Below are positions 16,377-24,700 of a stretch of 64,000 bases of DNA, one piece after another. Position numbers and translations under genes: made by a program. The notes below the pieces were generated by a model. That model searched no databases, had not been told where the DNA came from, and worked only from the letters and a program-made list of their open reading frames with translations. This stretch comes from an uncultured Eubacteriales bacterium (GTDB lineage Bacteria; Bacillota; Clostridia; Oscillospirales; CAG-272), in the NCBI GenBank assembly GCA_934434925.1, contig CAKSAC010000004.1, positions 67,388 through 131,387 on the forward strand. The letters run 5' to 3'. The stretch's first letter is position 1, and each line of letters opens with the position of its first letter.

Positions 16377-16433
16377 ATATTCCTCCAAGAGCATTCAGTA
16401 TCGATTACAGTGTATCACCGGGAGCCAGGAAAG

Positions 16434-19490
<3,057 letters not shown>

Positions 19491-19494
19491 TCAT

Positions 19495-19523
19495 ATTATA
19501 CGCCCCTGTCCTTTGGGTGTCAA
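19495..19523 (-). promoter_or_regulatory. consensus sigma-70 promoter TTGACA-17-TATAAT for lacZ operon
   Basis: Reverse strand: -35 at 19518-19523, 17-nt spacer, -10 at 19495-19500. Confidence 0.75.
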
Positions 19524-19583
19524 GCAATATTTCCCGGGCCGTGAAAAAACCCTTTCAGGTGTCAAGCAATATTTCCCGGGCCG
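19517..19583. repeat. 25-bp direct repeat x2 (period 42) carrying the lacZ -35 box
   Basis: gtgtcaagcaatatttcccgggccg occurs at 19517-19541 and again, identical, at 19559-19583. Confidence 0.9.
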
Positions 19584-19678: not shown

Positions 19679-19755
19679 TGGTGGACACAGGGGGGCTCGA
19701 ACCCTCGACCTTACGGATGTGAACCGTACGCTCTAACCAACTGAGCTATGCGTCC
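19679..19755 (-). tRNA. tRNA-Val (anticodon CAC)
   Basis: Manual cloverleaf: acceptor GGACGCA/TGTGTCC (one G-U), D arm GCTC..GAGC, anticodon stem TACGG/CCGTA with loop TTCACAT, T loop TTCGAGC (one A-C mismatch in the T stem), encoded CCA. Confidence 0.85.
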
Positions 19756-19794: not shown

Positions 19795-19907
19795 GGGGAT
19801 TTTCAAAAAAAGTTTCTTTCTTTCTTTTTTCGTCGGAAAGACATTGCAGATATTGACGTGCGCTCCTGAAAGTATCGTCAGAAATTTACCTGTTCTTTCA
19901 TTTTCTA

Positions 19908-19936
19908 TTGCAAAAGCGACCCGGCTTTGGTATAAT
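19908..19936 (+). promoter_or_regulatory. sigma-70 promoter TTGCAA-17-TATAAT (TG-extended)
   Basis: -35 at 19908-19913, TGg at 19928-19930, -10 at 19931-19936. Upstream of the LarA-like operon. Confidence 0.7.
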
Positions 19937-19982
19937 TATTCTGTAAAAGCATGGGACGCTCCCGTCCCGGAAAGCAGGTTTT

Positions 19983-21227
19983 ATGTTCAAGACAAGCGAC
20001 CGCGCGATACAGGACGCGGAACTGAAACAAATCCTCGCCGATTCTCTGAAGGGGCGAAAACTCAAAAAAGTCCTGCTCCTCCCGCCCGACTACACCCGCA
20101 TGTATTCGGGGGCCGGTAAAATCACTGCCTATTATTATGAAATGTTGAAGGATACTTGCGAAGTCGATGTGATGCCCGCCCTCGGCACGCACCTCCCCAT
20201 GACTGAAGAAGAATGCGACGCGTTCTTTCTCGGTATGATCCCGTTTGAACGGATTCTCGTCCATAACTGGCGTACCGACGTTGTGAAGATCGGCGAAGTG
20301 CCTGCGGCGTTCGTGCGCGAAGTCTCCGAGGGGCTGGTGGATCAGTCGATCGACGTGGAGGTAAATCGGCGCATCATGGACCCGTCCTACGATCTGATTA
20401 TTTCTGCGGGGCAGGTCGTGCCGCATGAAGTTGTCGGCATGGCTAACTATTCCAAAAATATTTTTGTCGGTTGCGGCGGGAGCAGTATGATCAACAGTTC
20501 CCATATGCTCGGCGCCTTCTACGGGCTTGAACGCATTATGGGACGCGATTTTTCGCCTGTGCGCCGGGTCTTTGACTACGCGCAAGAGCATTTCCTGTCC
20601 GATATTCCTCTTCTCTATGTGCTGACCGTCACGACCAATACCGGGGAGACCACCAATCTGCACGGTATCTATATCGGCAACCGCCGCGAACTCTTTGAAA
20701 TGGCGGTGGCACAAAGTCAGCAGAAGAACCTCAACCATATGAAAAAACCGCTCAAAAAAGTGGTGGTGTATCTTGACCCGCGCGAATTCAAGAGCACCTG
20801 GCTCGGCAACAAGGCCGTTTACCGTACCCGGATGGCAATCGCCGACGACGGTGAGCTGATCATCCTGGCTCCCGGGGTCAAAATGTTCGGTGAAGACCCG
20901 GAGAATGATCGCTTGATTCGCAAATACGGCTATGTCGGGCGGGAGCGCGTGCTGGAGCTGGTGAAAGAAAACGCCGATTTGCAGGAAAACATGTCTGTTG
21001 CGGCGCACCTGATTCACGGCTCTTCCGACGGCCGGTTCCGTATCGTCTACTGCACAAAACAACTCAGCGAGCAAGAAGTGCGTGGCGCGGCTTTTGATTA
21101 TCTGCCTTATGATGAAGTCGTAAAGAAATATGACCCCGCCGTGTTGACGGACGGGTTCCATGTGATCGACGGCGAAGAGATTTTCTATATCAGCAATCCG
21201 GCGCTCGGACTCTGGACGAGGGACTGA
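19983..21227 (+). CDS. LarA-like (lactate racemase / DUF2088 family) putative nickel-pincer-dependent 2-hydroxyacid racemase/epimerase
   Basis: 414 aa. By-eye alignment to L. plantarum LarA: LLLPPDYTR ~ ISSDHTRP, ALGTHLP ~ ATGFHRP, GQVVPHEVVGMANYSKN ~ GFIESHFFAGFSGGRKS, NSSHM ~ ANHS. The catalytic His residues and the tethering Lys appear conserved. Confidence 0.65.
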   Translation: MFKTSDRAIQDAELKQILADSLKGRKLKKVLLLPPDYTRMYSGAGKITAYYYEMLKDTCEVDVMPALGTHLPMTEEECDAFFLGMIPFERILVHNWRTDVVKIGEVPAAFVREVSEGLVDQSIDVEVNRRIMDPSYDLIISAGQVVPHEVVGMANYSKNIFVGCGGSSMINSSHMLGAFYGLERIMGRDFSPVRRVFDYAQEHFLSDIPLLYVLTVTTNTGETTNLHGIYIGNRRELFEMAVAQSQQKNLNHMKKPLKKVVVYLDPREFKSTWLGNKAVYRTRMAIADDGELIILAPGVKMFGEDPENDRLIRKYGYVGRERVLELVKENADLQENMSVAAHLIHGSSDGRFRIVYCTKQLSEQEVRGAAFDYLPYDEVVKKYDPAVLTDGFHVIDGEEIFYISNPALGLWTRD

Positions 21228-21228
21228 A

Positions 21229-22098
21229 ATGAGCGAAGGTATCATTGATCTGCACACGCATTCCCGCTATTCGGACGGTTCCATGACGCCGACCGAACTC
21301 GTCAACCACGCGAAAGCGTCCGGAATTGCGGCCATTGCCCTTTCCGACCATGACAGCGTCGGCGGTGTGCGCGAAGCCATGGCTGCCGGAGAGCGCGTCG
21401 GCGTTGAGGTCATTCCGGCGATTGAACTCTCGGTTATTTCCGCAACCGAAACGCACATCCTCGGTTATTTCATCGATCCGGATTCTCCGGCCATTGCGCT
21501 GGCAATGGAAAAAATCCTTGCCACCCGCCGGCATCGTTCGGAAGAAACCTGTCGTCTTCTGAACGAACTCGGCTTTCCCGTCACGATGGAGGAGGCCGAA
21601 GAGCTGGCCGGGGGCGAAATGCTCTGCCGGGCGCACTTTGCGCGCCTGCTCCAAAACAAGGGGCTTGTTTCCTCGGTCAAGGAGGCTTTTGACAAATATC
21701 TCGCCAACGGCCGCCCGGCAAACTGCAATATCCAGGCCATCACCGACCAGGAAGCCATCCGGCTGATTCATGCGGCCGGCGGCATTGCATTTGTCGCGCA
21801 TCTGCATCTTATCCGCCTGTCAGATGAGGAGCTGTTCACCTATCTTTCGGGCCTGAAAGAAGCGGGCCTCGACGGTATCGAAGGATACTACACCGAATAC
21901 ACGCCAAAAATGCAGGAAAATTTTCAAGGTATGGCCCGGACGCTCGGCTTGCAGATTTCCGGCGGAACCGATTTTCACGCGGCGATGAAACCGCACATTG
22001 CGATCGGGCGCGGCCTCGGGAATCTTTCTATTCCCTATTCTGTTCTGGAAAAGATGAAAAAATATTATAATACAAAAAAGGAAGGTACACGCAAATGA
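21229..22098 (+). CDS. PHP domain phosphoesterase (TrpH/YciV-like)
   Basis: N-terminal IDLHTHSRYSDGS, then ALSDHDSVGG and a C-terminal GGTDFH metal-ligand motif. Confidence 0.8.
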   Translation: MSEGIIDLHTHSRYSDGSMTPTELVNHAKASGIAAIALSDHDSVGGVREAMAAGERVGVEVIPAIELSVISATETHILGYFIDPDSPAIALAMEKILATRRHRSEETCRLLNELGFPVTMEEAEELAGGEMLCRAHFARLLQNKGLVSSVKEAFDKYLANGRPANCNIQAITDQEAIRLIHAAGGIAFVAHLHLIRLSDEELFTYLSGLKEAGLDGIEGYYTEYTPKMQENFQGMARTLGLQISGGTDFHAAMKPHIAIGRGLGNLSIPYSVLEKMKKYYNTKKEGTRK

Positions 22099-23546
22099 AA
22101 AAGTCGGATATTGGTCTGATCGGTCTTGCGGTCATGGGTGAAAACCTTGTTATCAATATGGAGAGCAAGGGCTTCACCGTTTCGGTCTACAACCGCACGA
22201 CCGATAAAGTGAAAAAGTTCGTAGAGGGACGCGCCAAAGGCAAAAACATCGTCGGCACGTATTCCCTTGAAGAACTGGTTGCCAGCCTCGAAAAACCCCG
22301 GAAGATCATGATGATGGTCAAGGCCGGCGCGGCTGTTGACGAAATGATTGACAAATTGCTTCCGCTCCTTGATGACGGAGATATCCTGATCGACGGAGGC
22401 AACTCCCACTTCCCCGACACGGCCCGCCGTACCGCTTATGTGGAGAGCAAAGGCAAACTTTATATCGGCACGGGTGTTTCCGGCGGTGAAGAAGGCGCAC
22501 TCAACGGCCCGAGCCTGATGCCCGGCGGTTCTCCTGCCGCATGGCCCTATGTCAAACCGATTCTCCAAGCCATCTGCGCCAAGGTCGAAGACGGTTCCCC
22601 CTGCTGTGACTGGGTCGGCGAAAACGGTGCCGGTCATTTTGTCAAGATGGTACATAACGGCATCGAATACGGCGACATGCAGATGATTTGCGAAGCCTAT
22701 CAGCTGATGCGCGATTATCTCGGCATGAATGATGATGAAATGCACGATGTTTTTGCCGACTGGAATGAAAAGGAACTCGACAGTTATCTCATTGAGATTA
22801 CCAAAGACATTCTTGCCTACAAAGATGAGGACGGTTCGCCGCTTGTTGAAAAGATCCTCGATACGGCCGGACAAAAAGGAACCGGCAAATGGACCGGCAT
22901 TGCCGCTTTGGACGAAGGTGTGCCGCTGACCCTGATCGGCGAAGCGGTCTTTGCCCGTTGCCTGAGTGCCATGAAGGAAGAAAGAGTGATGGCTTCCGGC
23001 GTTCTCACCGGCCCGAAGCCCGAATTCCACGGAGACAAAGCCGCCTTCATCGAAGACATCAAGAATGCTCTTTTTGCCGCCAAAATCGTTTCGTATGCGC
23101 AGGGCTACACCCTGATGCGCTCGGCTGCCAAGACATACGGCTGGAACCTGAACTACGGCGGCATCGCCCTGATGTGGCGCGGCGGCTGTATCATCCGCAG
23201 CGTATTCCTCGGCAAGATCAAAGAAGCCTTTGATAACAACCCCGAATTGCCGAACCTGTTGCTCGACCCCTACTTCAAGGACGTTATCGAAAAGGCGCAG
23301 GCCGGGTGGAGACGCGTTTGCTCCGCCGCTATGATGAACGGTATTCCGATGCCTGCCATGTCCTCTGCCCTTTCGTATTACGACGGCTATCGTTGCGCCC
23401 GCCTCCCCGCCAACCTGCTCCAGGCACAACGCGACTACTTCGGCGCACATACCTATGAACGCATTGACGCTCCCCGCGGTCAGTTCTTCCATACCAACTG
23501 GACCGGCAAAGGCGGCGACACGGCCGCGACCCAGTATTCGGTCTGA
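22095..23546 (+). CDS. gnd: 6-phosphogluconate dehydrogenase, decarboxylating
   Basis: 483 aa. NADP-binding IGLIGLAVMGENL, then GAGHFVKMVHNGIEYGDMQ and the C-terminal RDYFGAHTYERID. Confidence 0.93.
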   Translation: MKKSDIGLIGLAVMGENLVINMESKGFTVSVYNRTTDKVKKFVEGRAKGKNIVGTYSLEELVASLEKPRKIMMMVKAGAAVDEMIDKLLPLLDDGDILIDGGNSHFPDTARRTAYVESKGKLYIGTGVSGGEEGALNGPSLMPGGSPAAWPYVKPILQAICAKVEDGSPCCDWVGENGAGHFVKMVHNGIEYGDMQMICEAYQLMRDYLGMNDDEMHDVFADWNEKELDSYLIEITKDILAYKDEDGSPLVEKILDTAGQKGTGKWTGIAALDEGVPLTLIGEAVFARCLSAMKEERVMASGVLTGPKPEFHGDKAAFIEDIKNALFAAKIVSYAQGYTLMRSAAKTYGWNLNYGGIALMWRGGCIIRSVFLGKIKEAFDNNPELPNLLLDPYFKDVIEKAQAGWRRVCSAAMMNGIPMPAMSSALSYYDGYRCARLPANLLQAQRDYFGAHTYERIDAPRGQFFHTNWTGKGGDTAATQYSV

Positions 23547-23588
23547 ACCGTCTCGCCGGAAAATCATATCATTTCAGGAGGGAAACCC

Positions 23589-24662
23589 ATGAAAATCAGA
23601 GAAAACTATAAATACGCACTCGTAGTTCCTACCAGTATGGGCGTTCGGATCTGCCCGCCTGACGGACAGCCGGTTTACTCCTCTGAGCTGTTCCGTATGC
23701 AGGTGACAAGCGCAGAGACCAATGTGGCCAGTATTTCTTCCTACCTCGGCCTTCCCGTACACGTTCTGACCACGTTCGTCAAGGACAGTCCGATTGCCAA
23801 GATGATCAAGAACAATCTCCGTCAGCGCGGCATGAGCTATGAAGGCGCAGAGGTGGAGCAAGGCGGCCCTTGGGGCTATCGTCATCAGTTCAATATCGCG
23901 GACAGCGGTTACGGCGCGCGTGGCCCCCGCGTGCAGAACGACCGTGCAGGAGAAGTCGGCCGGACGCTGAACGTCAAAGATTTTGACCTTGACCGTCTCT
24001 TCGGCAAAGAAGGCGTTGCCGTGCTGCACCTCTCGGGTCTTATCGGCGCACTCTCCCCGGAAACCAGCAAATTCTGCCTTGAACTCGCCCGTGCCGCCAA
24101 AAAGTACGGCACGCTGATCTCTTTCGACCTCAACTACCGCGCTTCTTTCTGGAAAGGCCGCGAGCAGGAACTGCATGATATTTTCACCGAGATCGCCTCG
24201 GTGGCCGATATCCTTGTCGGCAACGAAGAAGACTTCCAGCTTTGCCTCGGTCTTGAAGGGCCGGAAGCAGGCGGAAAAGACCTCGCCTCCAAGATCGAAA
24301 GCTTCAAAGCGATGATTCGTACGGCGAAGGCACAGTACCCCAACGTTTCAGTCTTTGCAACCACGTTACGGCAGGTTATCAACGTCAACCGTCACCTGTG
24401 GGGAGCTATTATGCTGAACGGGGATGAATGGCACGTCGCCGAACCTCGTGAAATTACGGTTCTTGACCGTATCGGCGGCGGGGACGGATTTGTCGGCGGT
24501 CTGCTTTACGCCATCATCAAAGGCTGGGATGCCGAAAAGCAACTCCAGTTCGGATGGGCAAGCGGCGCGCTGGCTACCACTTTCCTCACCGACTATGCAC
24601 AGCCCGCAGACGAAGATCAGATCTTCAGCATCTGGGGCGGAAACGCCCGCGTCAAGCGGTAA
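23589..24662 (+). CDS. PfkB-family sugar/sugar-acid kinase (2-keto-3-deoxygluconate kinase-like)
   Basis: 357 aa. C-terminal DRIGGGDGFVGGLLY (PfkB signature 2-like). Long KDG-kinase-like architecture. Confidence 0.7.
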   Translation: MKIRENYKYALVVPTSMGVRICPPDGQPVYSSELFRMQVTSAETNVASISSYLGLPVHVLTTFVKDSPIAKMIKNNLRQRGMSYEGAEVEQGGPWGYRHQFNIADSGYGARGPRVQNDRAGEVGRTLNVKDFDLDRLFGKEGVAVLHLSGLIGALSPETSKFCLELARAAKKYGTLISFDLNYRASFWKGREQELHDIFTEIASVADILVGNEEDFQLCLGLEGPEAGGKDLASKIESFKAMIRTAKAQYPNVSVFATTLRQVINVNRHLWGAIMLNGDEWHVAEPREITVLDRIGGGDGFVGGLLYAIIKGWDAEKQLQFGWASGALATTFLTDYAQPADEDQIFSIWGGNARVKR

Positions 24663-24665
24663 AAC

Positions 24666-24700
24666 AAAAAGCCCGGAGAACCGTCTCCGGGTTTTTCTTT
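24666..24700. terminator. bidirectional rho-independent terminator
   Basis: Stem CCCGGAGA (24672-24679) / TCTCCGGG (24684-24691), with A5 before and T5 after, between convergent genes. Confidence 0.8.

What the first reader, a model, noticed from the sequence alone, without database searches (positions are those of the whole stretch)
19908..24700. LarA-like / PHP phosphoesterase / 6-phosphogluconate dehydrogenase / PfkB kinase operon: candidate aldonate 2-epimerase route into the pentose phosphate pathway
Four genes lie behind one strong promoter (19908-19936) and before one terminator (24666-24700), with junctions of +1, -4 and +42 nt. By-eye alignment to L. plantarum LarA suggests the first protein keeps both catalytic His contexts and the Lys that tethers the nickel-pincer cofactor. 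LarA homologs act at C2 of 2-hydroxy acids, and I recall a gluconate 2-epimerase activity reported in this superfamily. Its pairing with Gnd and a KDG-kinase-like sugar-acid kinase suggests this route: aldonate (for example mannonate) to gluconate, then 6-phosphogluconate, then ribulose-5-P. The PHP protein has no obvious role in that scheme. No larB/larC/larE genes are in the window.
Basis: partly seen in the sequence, partly recalled or inferred. Interest (0 to 1): 0.6.

Follow-up and report, generated by a model that had tools for sequence, protein, structure and literature searches.

The report
Nickel-epimerase mannonate-to-pentose-phosphate operon
This is a real four-gene operon in which a nickel-cofactor sugar-acid epimerase, a sugar-acid kinase and 6-phosphogluconate dehydrogenase most likely turn D-mannonate (from uronic acids) into ribulose-5-phosphate; the route is already predicted in the literature, so only the extra phosphoesterase and the order of two steps remain open.

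Summary
Four + strand genes (19983-24662) sit behind a promoter conserved in six species and before a strong terminator, with junctions of +1, -4 and +42 nt.

- Gene 1 is a full member of NCBIfam NF052594, the 'nickel-dependent putative hexonate epimerase' (LarA-homologue group 18 of Desguin 2020). It keeps every LarA catalytic and cofactor residue and the GntE signature.
- larE-larB-larC are present elsewhere in the genome.
- In 61 related genomes, this epimerase, its kinase orthologue and Gnd occur in exactly the same 8 genomes.
- All 8 have UxaC and none has UxuA (mannonate dehydratase). Of the 38 other UxaC-positive genomes, 35 have UxuA. No genome has zwf.
- Across 88 loci the neighbours are Gnd, the kinase, a D-mannonate oxidoreductase, UxaC and UxaE.

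The module is therefore the mannonate to 6-phosphogluconate to ribulose-5-P alternative to the UxuA/KdgK/KdgA branch. This route was proposed in 2012 and has been partly shown since.

Open points:
- whether the kinase or the epimerase acts first;
- the role of the PHP phosphoesterase, which other clusters replace with HAD phosphatases;
- why 6 of the 8 carrier genomes show no larB or larC.

Verdict: new member of a known kind, modest interest.

The parts
19908..19936 (+). Sigma-70-type promoter, TTGCAA-17 nt-TATAAT with a TG extended -10
   Evidence: 10 of 12 matches, TG present. The -35, spacer and -10 are conserved in six species while the flanks diverge.
19953..19968 (+). Small GGGN...NCCC stem-loop in the 5' leader, directly before the conserved CCCGGAAAGCAGG ribosome-binding region
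   Evidence: The stem ends are conserved with a variable loop in six species. The fold is not better than shuffles (z = -0.9), so its function is uncertain.
19983..21227 (+). LarA-homologue group 18 / NF052594: nickel-pincer (NPN) dependent hexonate 2-epimerase, predicted to interconvert D-mannonate and D-gluconate or their 6-phosphates
   Evidence: NF052594 scores 641 bits against a cut-off of 500. The closest solved structure is 4NAR, T. maritima GntE2. Catalytic and NPN residues are conserved. It is 68% identical to the listed group-18 member TREPR_1367.
21229..22098 (+). PHP-family (COG0613, TrpH/RNase AM/Cv1693-like) trinuclear metal phosphoesterase; accessory member, substrate unknown
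   Evidence: PF02811. It scores below the cut-offs of the pAp phosphatase and RNase AM models. It is 35-40% similar to 2YB1 and 7UG9. Metal ligands and R100, R103, R134 and F154 are invariant in 19 cluster-linked orthologues. Orthologues are found only in cluster-bearing genomes.
22095..23546 (+). Decarboxylating NADP-dependent 6-phosphogluconate dehydrogenase (Gnd)
   Evidence: TIGR00873 scores 777 bits against a cut-off of 427. It is the only Gnd in the genome and occurs only in genomes with the epimerase. zwf is absent.
23589..24662 (+). PfkB-family sugar-acid kinase, KDG-kinase-like but not the KdgK orthologue: predicted gluconate or mannonate 6-kinase
   Evidence: PF00294. It scores below all KdgK equivalog cut-offs. 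The best solved structure is 2AFB, T. maritima KDG kinase. Orthologues occur only in the 8 epimerase genomes. The true KdgK lies next to Eda on contig C20.
24672..24700 (+). Bidirectional intrinsic terminator (8-bp G+C-rich stem, ACCG loop, T-tract; A-tract upstream)
   Evidence: -24.8 kcal/mol, z = -5.4.

Best explanation
The four genes form one transcription unit. It encodes the lower branch of a hexuronate (and possibly inositol) catabolic route that bypasses mannonate dehydratase.

Upstream steps are encoded elsewhere in the genome. UxaC, UxaE and an SDR-type D-mannonate oxidoreductase produce D-mannonate.

The operon then works as follows:
1. The nickel-pincer-nucleotide enzyme (gene 1) inverts C2 by transient oxidation to the 2-keto acid and hydride return. 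This is the LarA mechanism.
2. The PfkB kinase (gene 4) phosphorylates C6.
3. Gnd (gene 3) oxidatively decarboxylates 6-phospho-D-gluconate to ribulose-5-phosphate, CO2 and NADPH.

[quoted passage not shown] The reverse order (mannonate kinase, then 6-phosphomannonate 2-epimerase) is a live alternative.

The PHP protein (gene 2) is an accessory, catalytically intact phosphoesterase. It is most likely a relief or proof-reading valve for a phosphorylated intermediate or by-product.

What is shown: gene order, family membership, residue conservation, co-occurrence patterns and the presence of the cofactor genes. What is inferred: the substrates, the direction, the order of steps and the PHP role.
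For: Family and residues:
- Gene 1 scores 641 bits on NF052594 against a cut-off of 500.
- LarA D72, R75, H108, H174, K184 and H200 equivalents are present and invariant in 88 homologues.
- The GntE signature E, V, A, H (defined in PMC11770544) is present as E149, V150, A341, H342.

Cofactor: larE-larB-larC are in the genome. No other LarA-family match in the genome was found with this model, so gene 1 appears to be their only client.

Phyletic pattern in 61 genomes:
- The epimerase, Gnd over cut-off and kinase orthologues (at least 69% identity) occur in the same 8 genomes.
- zwf is in none.
- UxaC is in all 8. UxuA is in 0 of the 8 but in 35 of the 38 other UxaC-positive genomes.

Neighbourhoods in 88 loci: Gnd 66, kinase 44, SDR 28, UxaC 13, UxaE 10. 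The SDR is NF006132, D-mannonate oxidoreductase, at 427 bits against a cut-off of 281.

The gene order is shuffled between lineages, yet the set is kept.

The window's own genome has UxaC, UxaE and the SDR (60% identity) on other contigs.

Literature:
- The group-18 context and hypothesis are in PMC7583248.
- An oomycete GntE-branch enzyme epimerises D-mannonate with kcat 111 per s and Km 9.4 mM (PMC11770544).
- The pathway operates in vivo in L. suebicus (PMC6978723).
Against: - No biochemical or expression data exist for this operon.
- No member of this bacterial subfamily has been assayed in the papers I read. Phosphorylated substrates were never tested on any LarA homologue there.
- The operon has no transporter or regulator gene, and the upstream enzymes are scattered over other contigs.
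- Six of the 8 carrier genomes show no larB or larC. This sits badly with an obligate NPN enzyme, unless the cofactor is obtained otherwise or the assemblies are incomplete.
- The co-occurrence counts are not phylogenetically independent. There are roughly three or four lineages, not eight.
Confidence: 0.75

Rival explanations
1. Same route but kinase first. The PfkB enzyme is a D-mannonate 6-kinase and the LarA homologue is a 6-phosphomannonate 2-epimerase. These are the two orphan activities found in Lactobacillus suebicus extracts. The phosphoesterase drains 6-phosphomannonate when the labile nickel enzyme is limiting.
For: - L. suebicus extracts convert mannonate only with ATP, and they interconvert 6-phosphomannonate and 6-phosphogluconate. 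The genes were not identified (PMC6978723).
- Characterised GntE-type enzymes have millimolar Km for free mannonate (9.4 mM, PMC11770544; a high Km is noted in PMC7583248).
- The kinase is not a GntK type and scores below all named equivalogs.
- A phosphatase of one of three types recurs in about 36 of 89 clusters.
Against: - The substrate-pocket signature (E, V, A, H) is the same as in GntE enzymes that act on unphosphorylated gluconate/mannonate (PMC11770544).
- The T. maritima relative is paired with an FGGY sugar kinase (Table S1 of PMC7583248). From memory, not checked here, that kinase has been characterised as a gluconate kinase.
- The L. suebicus candidates named by the authors are GntK-like kinases and an unrelated epimerase candidate.
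- About half of the complete-looking clusters have no phosphatase.
Confidence: 0.3
2. The epimerase acts on another hexonate pair, for example L-gulonate/L-idonate or altronate/allonate. Further steps then lead to 6-phosphogluconate, so mannonate is not the physiological substrate.
For: - NCBI and Desguin 2020 name the family only a 'putative hexonate epimerase' (PMC7583248).
- Group-18 signature logos differ somewhat from those of groups 19 and 20.
- Some loci carry D-2-hydroxyacid dehydrogenase genes (7 loci).
Against: - The commonest dehydrogenase neighbour is a D-mannonate oxidoreductase family member, above its cut-off.
- UxaC and UxaE neighbours converge on fructuronate and so on mannonate.
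- The module is complementary to UxuA, whose substrate is mannonate.
- Only the C2 epimer of mannonate gives the Gnd substrate directly.
Confidence: 0.1
3. The genes are a chance juxtaposition. Gnd is the housekeeping oxidative pentose-phosphate enzyme, the PHP protein is a housekeeping pAp phosphatase/RNase AM, and the LarA homologue has an unrelated role.
For: - The PHP protein keeps the nucleotide 5'-phosphate pocket (R100, R103, R134) and the stacking Phe of RNase AM/Cv1693.
- The flanking genes (GH2, tRNA-Val, a 308-aa ORF I read as ComEC-like without a family search, recR) are unrelated.
Against: - zwf is absent from all 61 genomes.
- Gnd, the kinase and the epimerase share an identical presence/absence pattern.
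- The cluster is conserved with rearranged gene order across families and phyla.
- Translational coupling links the genes.
Confidence: 0.03

Closest known systems
LarA-homologue group 18 ('G2E3', putative hexonate epimerase) of Desguin et al. 2020 (PMC7583248); NCBIfam NF052594 NPN_18_hexonate
   Same: - Full-length match above the curated cut-off.
- 68% identity to the listed member TREPR_1367 and 46% to a diatom member.
- The same residue signature D R H H E V K H ... N K.
- The same reported neighbours: SDR, Gnd, ribokinase-family kinase, UxaC.
   Different: The published context table (25 genomes, three genes on each side) lists no phosphatase. Here a PHP phosphoesterase sits between the epimerase and Gnd. 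No bacterial member of the group was assayed in the papers read.
GntE D-gluconate 2-epimerases: GntE2 of Thermotoga maritima (LarAH20, PDB 4NAR), GntE1 of Corynebacterium glutamicum (LarAH19), LarAH15 of Phytophthora nicotianae (PMC7583248, PMC11770544)
   Same: - Closest solved structure (E = 2.6e-33 with the single sequence, 6e-47 with a profile).
- The same E, V, A, H pocket signature.
- The same kind of gene company (SDR, sugar kinase; Gnd as well, going by earlier notes of this scan for T. maritima).
- NPN-dependent C2 inversion of mannonate/gluconate has been shown in vitro for these enzymes.
   Different: It is a different NCBIfam family. The T. maritima enzyme pairs with an FGGY kinase, whereas this one pairs with a PfkB kinase. 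LarAH15 is eukaryotic, and I inferred its link to group 18 only from the group-18 listing of the P. infestans homologue.
Hybrid isomerase/phosphoketolase galacturonate pathway of Lactobacillus suebicus (Valk et al. 2020, PMC6978723)
   Same: Mannonate is converted to 6-phosphogluconate and then to ribulose-5-P by Gnd instead of being dehydrated by UxuA. UxaC, UxaE and UxuB act upstream.
   Different: In L. suebicus the order is kinase then 6-phosphomannonate 2-epimerase, and the genes are unidentified. Here the genes are visible but the order is unknown. L. suebicus also encodes the UxuA/KdgK/KdgA genes (not detected in its proteome), whereas this genome has no UxuA.
COG0613 PHP phosphoesterases: Cv1693 3',5'-nucleotide bisphosphate phosphatase (PDB 2YB1) and RNase AM/YciV (PDB 7UG9)
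   Same: Gene 2 aligns end to end. It has all the metal ligands, the three arginines of the 5'-phosphate pocket and the stacking Phe.
   Different: - It scores only half the cut-off of either equivalog model.
- In this genus, orthologues are restricted to genomes carrying the epimerase cluster.
- Cof-type or other HAD phosphatases take its place in related clusters.

Membership tests
NF052594 / LarA-homologue group 18 (NPN-dependent hexonate epimerase) | Full-length HMM score above the curated cut-off | tested here: met
   641 bits against a cut-off of 500, covering model positions 3-410 of 411. Other LarA-family models score below 40 bits.
NF052594 / LarA-homologue group 18 (NPN-dependent hexonate epimerase) | Catalytic His pair, substrate-carboxylate Asp/Arg, NPN-tethering Lys and Ni-ligand His (LarA D72, R75, H108, H174, K184, H200) | tested here: met
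   D36, R39, H70, H148, K158 and H174 align to these positions in 2YJG/5HUQ, with identical H-to-K (+10) and K-to-H (+16) spacing. They are invariant in 88 homologues.
NF052594 / LarA-homologue group 18 (NPN-dependent hexonate epimerase) | GntE pocket signature E, V, A, H at LarA F175, F176, W358, T359 (PMC11770544) | tested here: met
   E149, V150, A341, H342. The assignment of A341/H342 to W358/T359 rests on motif position, not on a structural superposition.
NF052594 / LarA-homologue group 18 (NPN-dependent hexonate epimerase) | NPN cofactor biosynthesis (LarB, LarC, LarE) available in the organism | tested here: met
   LarB 289 bits, LarE 215 bits and LarC 200 bits, all above their cut-offs. 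They form one larE-larB-larC operon split by a contig break. This is not met in 6 of the 8 related carrier genomes for LarB and LarC.
NF052594 / LarA-homologue group 18 (NPN-dependent hexonate epimerase) | C2 epimerisation of a hexonate in vitro | not testable with these tools
   This needs NPN-loaded protein and an assay.
Decarboxylating 6-phosphogluconate dehydrogenase (TIGR00873) | Equivalog HMM above cut-off, both domains present | tested here: met
   777 bits against 427; PF03446 and PF00393 both present.
2-dehydro-3-deoxygluconokinase (KdgK) | Equivalog HMM above cut-off | tested here: not met
   NF041332 scores 112 against 440, NF040938 scores 46 against 400 and NF052444 scores 28 against 400. 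A separate PfkB kinase lies next to the KDPG aldolase on C20. Gene 4 is a PfkB-family member (PF00294, 74 bits; GGGD motif visible) but not KdgK.
3',5'-nucleoside bisphosphate phosphatase / RNase AM (COG0613 PHP) | Equivalog HMM above cut-off | tested here: not met
   NF041577 scores 195 against 400 and NF047791 scores 172 against 375.
3',5'-nucleoside bisphosphate phosphatase / RNase AM (COG0613 PHP) | Trinuclear metal ligands and the 5'-phosphate pocket (RNase AM Arg107, Arg110, Arg141, Phe161) | tested here: met
   The metal ligands H9, H11, D16 and H41 are counted invariant in 19 orthologues. E66, H76, H191, D248 and H250 are also on that invariant list. I mapped E66 and H76 to RNase AM Glu72 and His83 by alignment and assigned the last three by motif position. 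R100, R103, R134 and F154 fill the pocket.
Mannonate to 6-phosphogluconate shunt of hexuronate catabolism (Rodionova 2012 proposal; Valk 2020) | Upstream enzymes that make mannonate are present, and mannonate dehydratase is absent or unused | tested here: met
   UxaC, UxaE and the SDR mannonate oxidoreductase are in the genome. UxuA is absent from this genome and from all 8 carrier genomes.

The most novel reading that the evidence does not exclude
[quoted passage not shown] That would make this the first nickel-pincer enzyme known to act on a phosphorylated substrate. The recurrent, non-orthologously replaced phosphatase (PHP here, HAD types elsewhere) would be a dedicated relief valve for the phospho-hexonate pool. 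A further oddity is that most related carrier genomes lack larB and larC. This would imply scavenging of the nickel-pincer cofactor (or a precursor), or an unknown maturation route.
Probability: 0.25. Interest if true: 0.65.

Novelty: new member of a known kind. Interest (0 to 1): 0.33.

Why it matters
The shunt converts uronic acids from pectin, hemicellulose or host glycans into pentose phosphate without net use of redox cofactor. This changes which fermentation products gut Clostridia can make from these sugars, and it is of interest for engineering pectin conversion.

The comparative data here give clean genomic support. The epimerase-kinase-Gnd module and mannonate dehydratase are alternative solutions in closely related species.

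The data also point to concrete candidate genes for two orphan enzyme activities. They raise a question about how nickel-pincer enzymes are matured in genomes without larB and larC.

The core idea, however, is already published and is captured in NCBI's family naming.

Tried and rejected
- **Shared operator.** I looked for a common site between this operon, the neighbouring GH2 gene and the uxaC, uxaE and uxuB loci. The upstream element ATTGCAnATATTG is conserved among species. It has only five scattered genome copies and none at the other loci. Dropped.
- **5' leader hairpin as a regulatory structure.** It folds no better than shuffles.
- **Transketolase and phosphoketolase motifs.** A regex of remembered motifs over the genome found nothing. 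I treat this as a failure of the remembered motifs, not as absence.
- **Greedy longest-ORF calling.** In this G+C-rich DNA it picks antisense ORFs, for example 16410-19544 opposite the GH2 gene. I replaced it with clustering of all ORFs.
- **Gluconate to mannonate to KDG direction (the T. maritima gluconate reading).** Rejected because UxuA is absent.
- **PHP in NPN metabolism.** Considered, but no supporting pattern emerged. The PHP gene is present in carriers both with and without larBC.
- **Structure prediction and fold search.** Not run. The tool gives confidence scores and secondary structure only, so it could not settle substrate binding.


Full report
**Observation.** The region holds four + strand ORFs: 19983-21227 (414 aa), 21229-22098 (289 aa), 22095-23546 (483 aa) and 23589-24662 (357 aa). 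TGA-A-ATG gives +1 nt. ATGA gives a 4-nt overlap, preceded by AAGGAAGG. The last gap is 42 nt and contains AGGAGGG.

The promoter TTGCAA-17-TATAAT with an upstream TG lies at 19908-19936. The scan by itself is weak, with 11 sites against 4.9 expected by chance. An alignment of the upstream regions of six species of the genus is more telling. It shows the -35 box, the 17-nt spacing and the TG-n-TATAAT/TATACT box conserved while the flanking DNA has diverged.

The terminator is a perfect 8-bp G+C-rich hairpin (24672-24691) between an A-tract and a T-tract. It folds at -24.8 kcal/mol, z = -5.4, and none of 200 shuffles folds as well. It serves both this operon and the convergent gene downstream. 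A tRNA-Val gene (19679-19755, minus strand) and a divergent GH2 beta-galactosidase-type gene lie upstream.

**The four proteins.**
- Gene 1 scores 641 bits (cut-off 500) on NCBIfam NF052594, 'nickel-dependent putative hexonate epimerase'. It scores below 40 bits on the malate- and lactate-racemase models.
- Gene 3 is a canonical decarboxylating Gnd (TIGR00873, 777 bits).
- Gene 4 is a PfkB kinase. It resembles KDG kinases but lies far below every KdgK equivalog cut-off. Its best solved relative is T. maritima KDG kinase 2AFB.
- Gene 2 is a PHP-domain protein of the COG0613 type. It scores about half the cut-off of both the pAp phosphatase and RNase AM models. It aligns end to end with Cv1693 (2YB1) and RNase AM (7UG9).

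**Catalytic residues and placement of the LarA homologue.** A profile built from seven family members aligns to the lactate racemase structures 2YJG and 5HUQ. In that alignment D36, R39, H70, H148, K158 and H174 fall on LarA D72, R75, H108, H174, K184 and H200. The H-to-K and K-to-H spacings are the same as in LarA. These residues are invariant in all 88 homologues I collected.

The nearest solved structure is 4NAR, the T. maritima GntE2 apoprotein. The four positions that Urdiain-Arraiza et al. use to recognise gluconate 2-epimerases (E, V, A, H; PMC11770544) read E149, V150, A341, H342 here.

The protein is 68% identical to TREPR_1367 and 46% identical to a diatom protein. Both are listed in group 18 ('G2E3', putative hexonate epimerase) of Desguin et al. 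2020. That paper already records SDR, Gnd, ribokinase-family kinase and UxaC genes as the typical neighbours of group 18.

**Cofactor genes.** LarB, LarE and LarC all score above their cut-offs in the genome. larE and larB lie at the start of contig C12 and larC lies at the end of C25. Both contig ends consist of the same 18-nt tandem repeat, which encodes (HEHEHG)n, the histidine-rich part of LarC. The three genes are therefore one operon that the assembler broke. The NF052594 search found no second LarA-family match in the genome, so the operon's epimerase appears to be the only client of the cofactor pathway.

**Comparative genomics.** I searched the 60 nearest genomes plus the window's own.
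- The epimerase is above cut-off in 8 genomes.
- Gnd is above cut-off in exactly those 8.
- Kinase orthologues (69-98% identity) occur in exactly those 8.
- Other genomes have only a paralogue at about 30% identity, which is the KdgK type. In the window's genome this paralogue lies next to KDPG aldolase on C20.
- zwf is absent from all 61 genomes. Gnd here therefore cannot be part of a glucose-6-phosphate oxidative branch.
- All 8 carriers have UxaC and none has UxuA. Of the 38 other UxaC-positive genomes, 35 have UxuA.

If genomes were independent, the chance of these patterns would be about 3e-10 and 6e-7 (hypergeometric, computed by hand from these counts). They are not independent, because the carriers fall into roughly three or four lineages. 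Even so, the complementarity is clear. The module replaces the mannonate dehydratase step.

**Neighbourhoods across 88 loci (mostly Bacillota, a few from other phyla).** The genes beside the epimerase are:

| Neighbour | Loci |
|---|---|
| Gnd | 66 |
| PfkB kinase | 44 |
| SDR (NF006132 D-mannonate oxidoreductase, 427 bits against cut-off 281) | 28 |
| PHP protein | 19 |
| UxaC | 13 |
| Cof-type HAD phosphatase | 11 |
| UxaE | 10 |
| AraC regulator | 10 |
| LacI regulator | 7 |
| D-2-hydroxyacid dehydrogenase | 7 |
| Second HAD-like protein | 6 |
| Mannitol-dehydrogenase-type UxuB | 6 |
| GntK-like FGGY kinase (where PfkB is missing) | 5 |

The fullest operons read AraC< PfkB Gnd HAD SDR LarAH UxaC (L111-L113). 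The gene order differs between lineages but the set persists. The window's genome encodes UxaC, UxaE and the SDR (60% identity to the cluster-linked one) on other contigs.

**Mechanism.** UxaC, UxaE and the SDR lead from glucuronate or galacturonate to D-mannonate. The epimerase and the kinase convert mannonate to 6-phospho-D-gluconate. Gnd then gives ribulose-5-phosphate.

This is the shunt proposed for T. maritima by Rodionova et al. 2012 (as cited in PMC6978723). GntE activity has been shown in vitro (PMC7583248, PMC11770544). The whole route has been shown physiologically in L. suebicus (PMC6978723).

In L. suebicus extracts the order is kinase then 6-phosphomannonate 2-epimerase, and the genes were not found. 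For this operon the order cannot be read from sequence. The shared GntE pocket signature argues mildly for epimerase first. So does the activity of GntE-branch enzymes on free mannonate. Their millimolar Km values, the non-GntK kinase and the recurrent phosphatase argue for kinase first.

**The PHP protein.** Its orthologues (60-88% identity) occur in 7 of the 8 carriers. No non-carrier has one; they have either nothing or paralogues of 41% identity or less. The gene therefore travels with the cluster.

It keeps all the metal ligands and the RNase AM/Cv1693 5'-phosphate pocket (R100, R103, R134) and the stacking Phe (F154). All are invariant in 19 orthologues. It is thus an active phosphoesterase whose pocket suits a substrate with a second anionic group.

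In other lineages a Cof-type HAD or another HAD-like gene occupies the same place. About 36 of 89 clusters have one of the three types, and many complete-looking clusters have none. I read it as an accessory relief or proof-reading phosphatase for a phospho-hexonate, with low confidence. A nucleotide substrate (pAp-like, or 2',5'-ADP, which from memory is a classic inhibitor of NADP enzymes such as Gnd) is not excluded.

**An unexplained point.** Of the 8 carrier genomes, only the window's own and its closest relative (G030) have LarB and LarC. Four species of the same genus (92-96% complete) and two from other families (96% and 98% complete) have neither. Yet their epimerases keep every cofactor-binding residue. 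Incomplete bins, cofactor scavenging or another maturation route are all possible. I found no discussion of such cases in the papers read.

**Comparison and verdict.** However, it restates a published hypothesis that NCBI has already turned into a family name. Earlier notes of this scan describe the same operon type in many other genomes.

This analysis adds four things:
- the clean complementarity with UxuA;
- the non-orthologous replacement of the accessory phosphatase;
- the nucleotide-type pocket of the PHP protein;
- the larB/larC gap in relatives.

I class it as a new member of a known kind, with modest interest.

Noticed in passing
Genome contigs C25:9232-10326 (minus) and C12:1-1786 (outside the window): larE, larB and larC form one operon that the assembly split. 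Both contig ends are the same 18-nt tandem repeat coding (HEHEHG)n, a histidine-rich stretch at the N-terminal side of the LarC domain.
   Followed up: partly
Related genomes G016, G019, G021, G024, G046, G057: These six genomes carry the epimerase, kinase and Gnd but show no LarB or LarC match. Only G000 and G030 have them. Possible explanations are cofactor scavenging, another maturation route or assembly gaps.
   Followed up: partly
window 19517-19583: Two direct copies of about 25 nt (GTGTCAAGCAATATTTCCCGGGCC) lie upstream of the GH2 gene. The proximal copy carries the -35 box of a perfect 12/12 minus-strand promoter (19523-19495).
   Followed up: no
window 19843-19858: An element ATTGCAgATATTG lies about 50 nt upstream of the -35 box. 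It is conserved as ATATTGCAAATATTG in four relatives. There are only five loose copies in the genome and none at the uxaC, uxaE or uxuB loci. It may be an operator.
   Followed up: partly
Genome contig C16:20433-24474 (locus L121 6433-10474, minus): The SDR-type mannonate oxidoreductase follows two GFO/IDH/MocA oxidoreductase genes, one of them fused to a xylose-isomerase-like TIM barrel. From memory this resembles the Thermotoga-type inositol route that ends in tagaturonate, so inositol may also feed the shunt.
   Followed up: no
L032 8639-10851 and L033 4740-11795 (genome G057): The cluster is split here. The epimerase follows a xylose-isomerase-like TIM-barrel gene on one contig. The kinase and Gnd follow a FucI-like isomerase, an FGGY kinase and an SDR on another contig. 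No PHP orthologue is present.
   Followed up: partly
window 19679-19755: A tRNA-Val (CAC) gene on the minus strand lies between the GH2 gene and the operon promoter.
   Followed up: yes
window 16410-19544: A 1044-aa + strand ORF lies antisense to the 1018-aa GH2 gene (16434-19490, minus), which has clear Pfam domains. It is an example of a long spurious antisense frame in G+C-rich DNA.
   Followed up: yes
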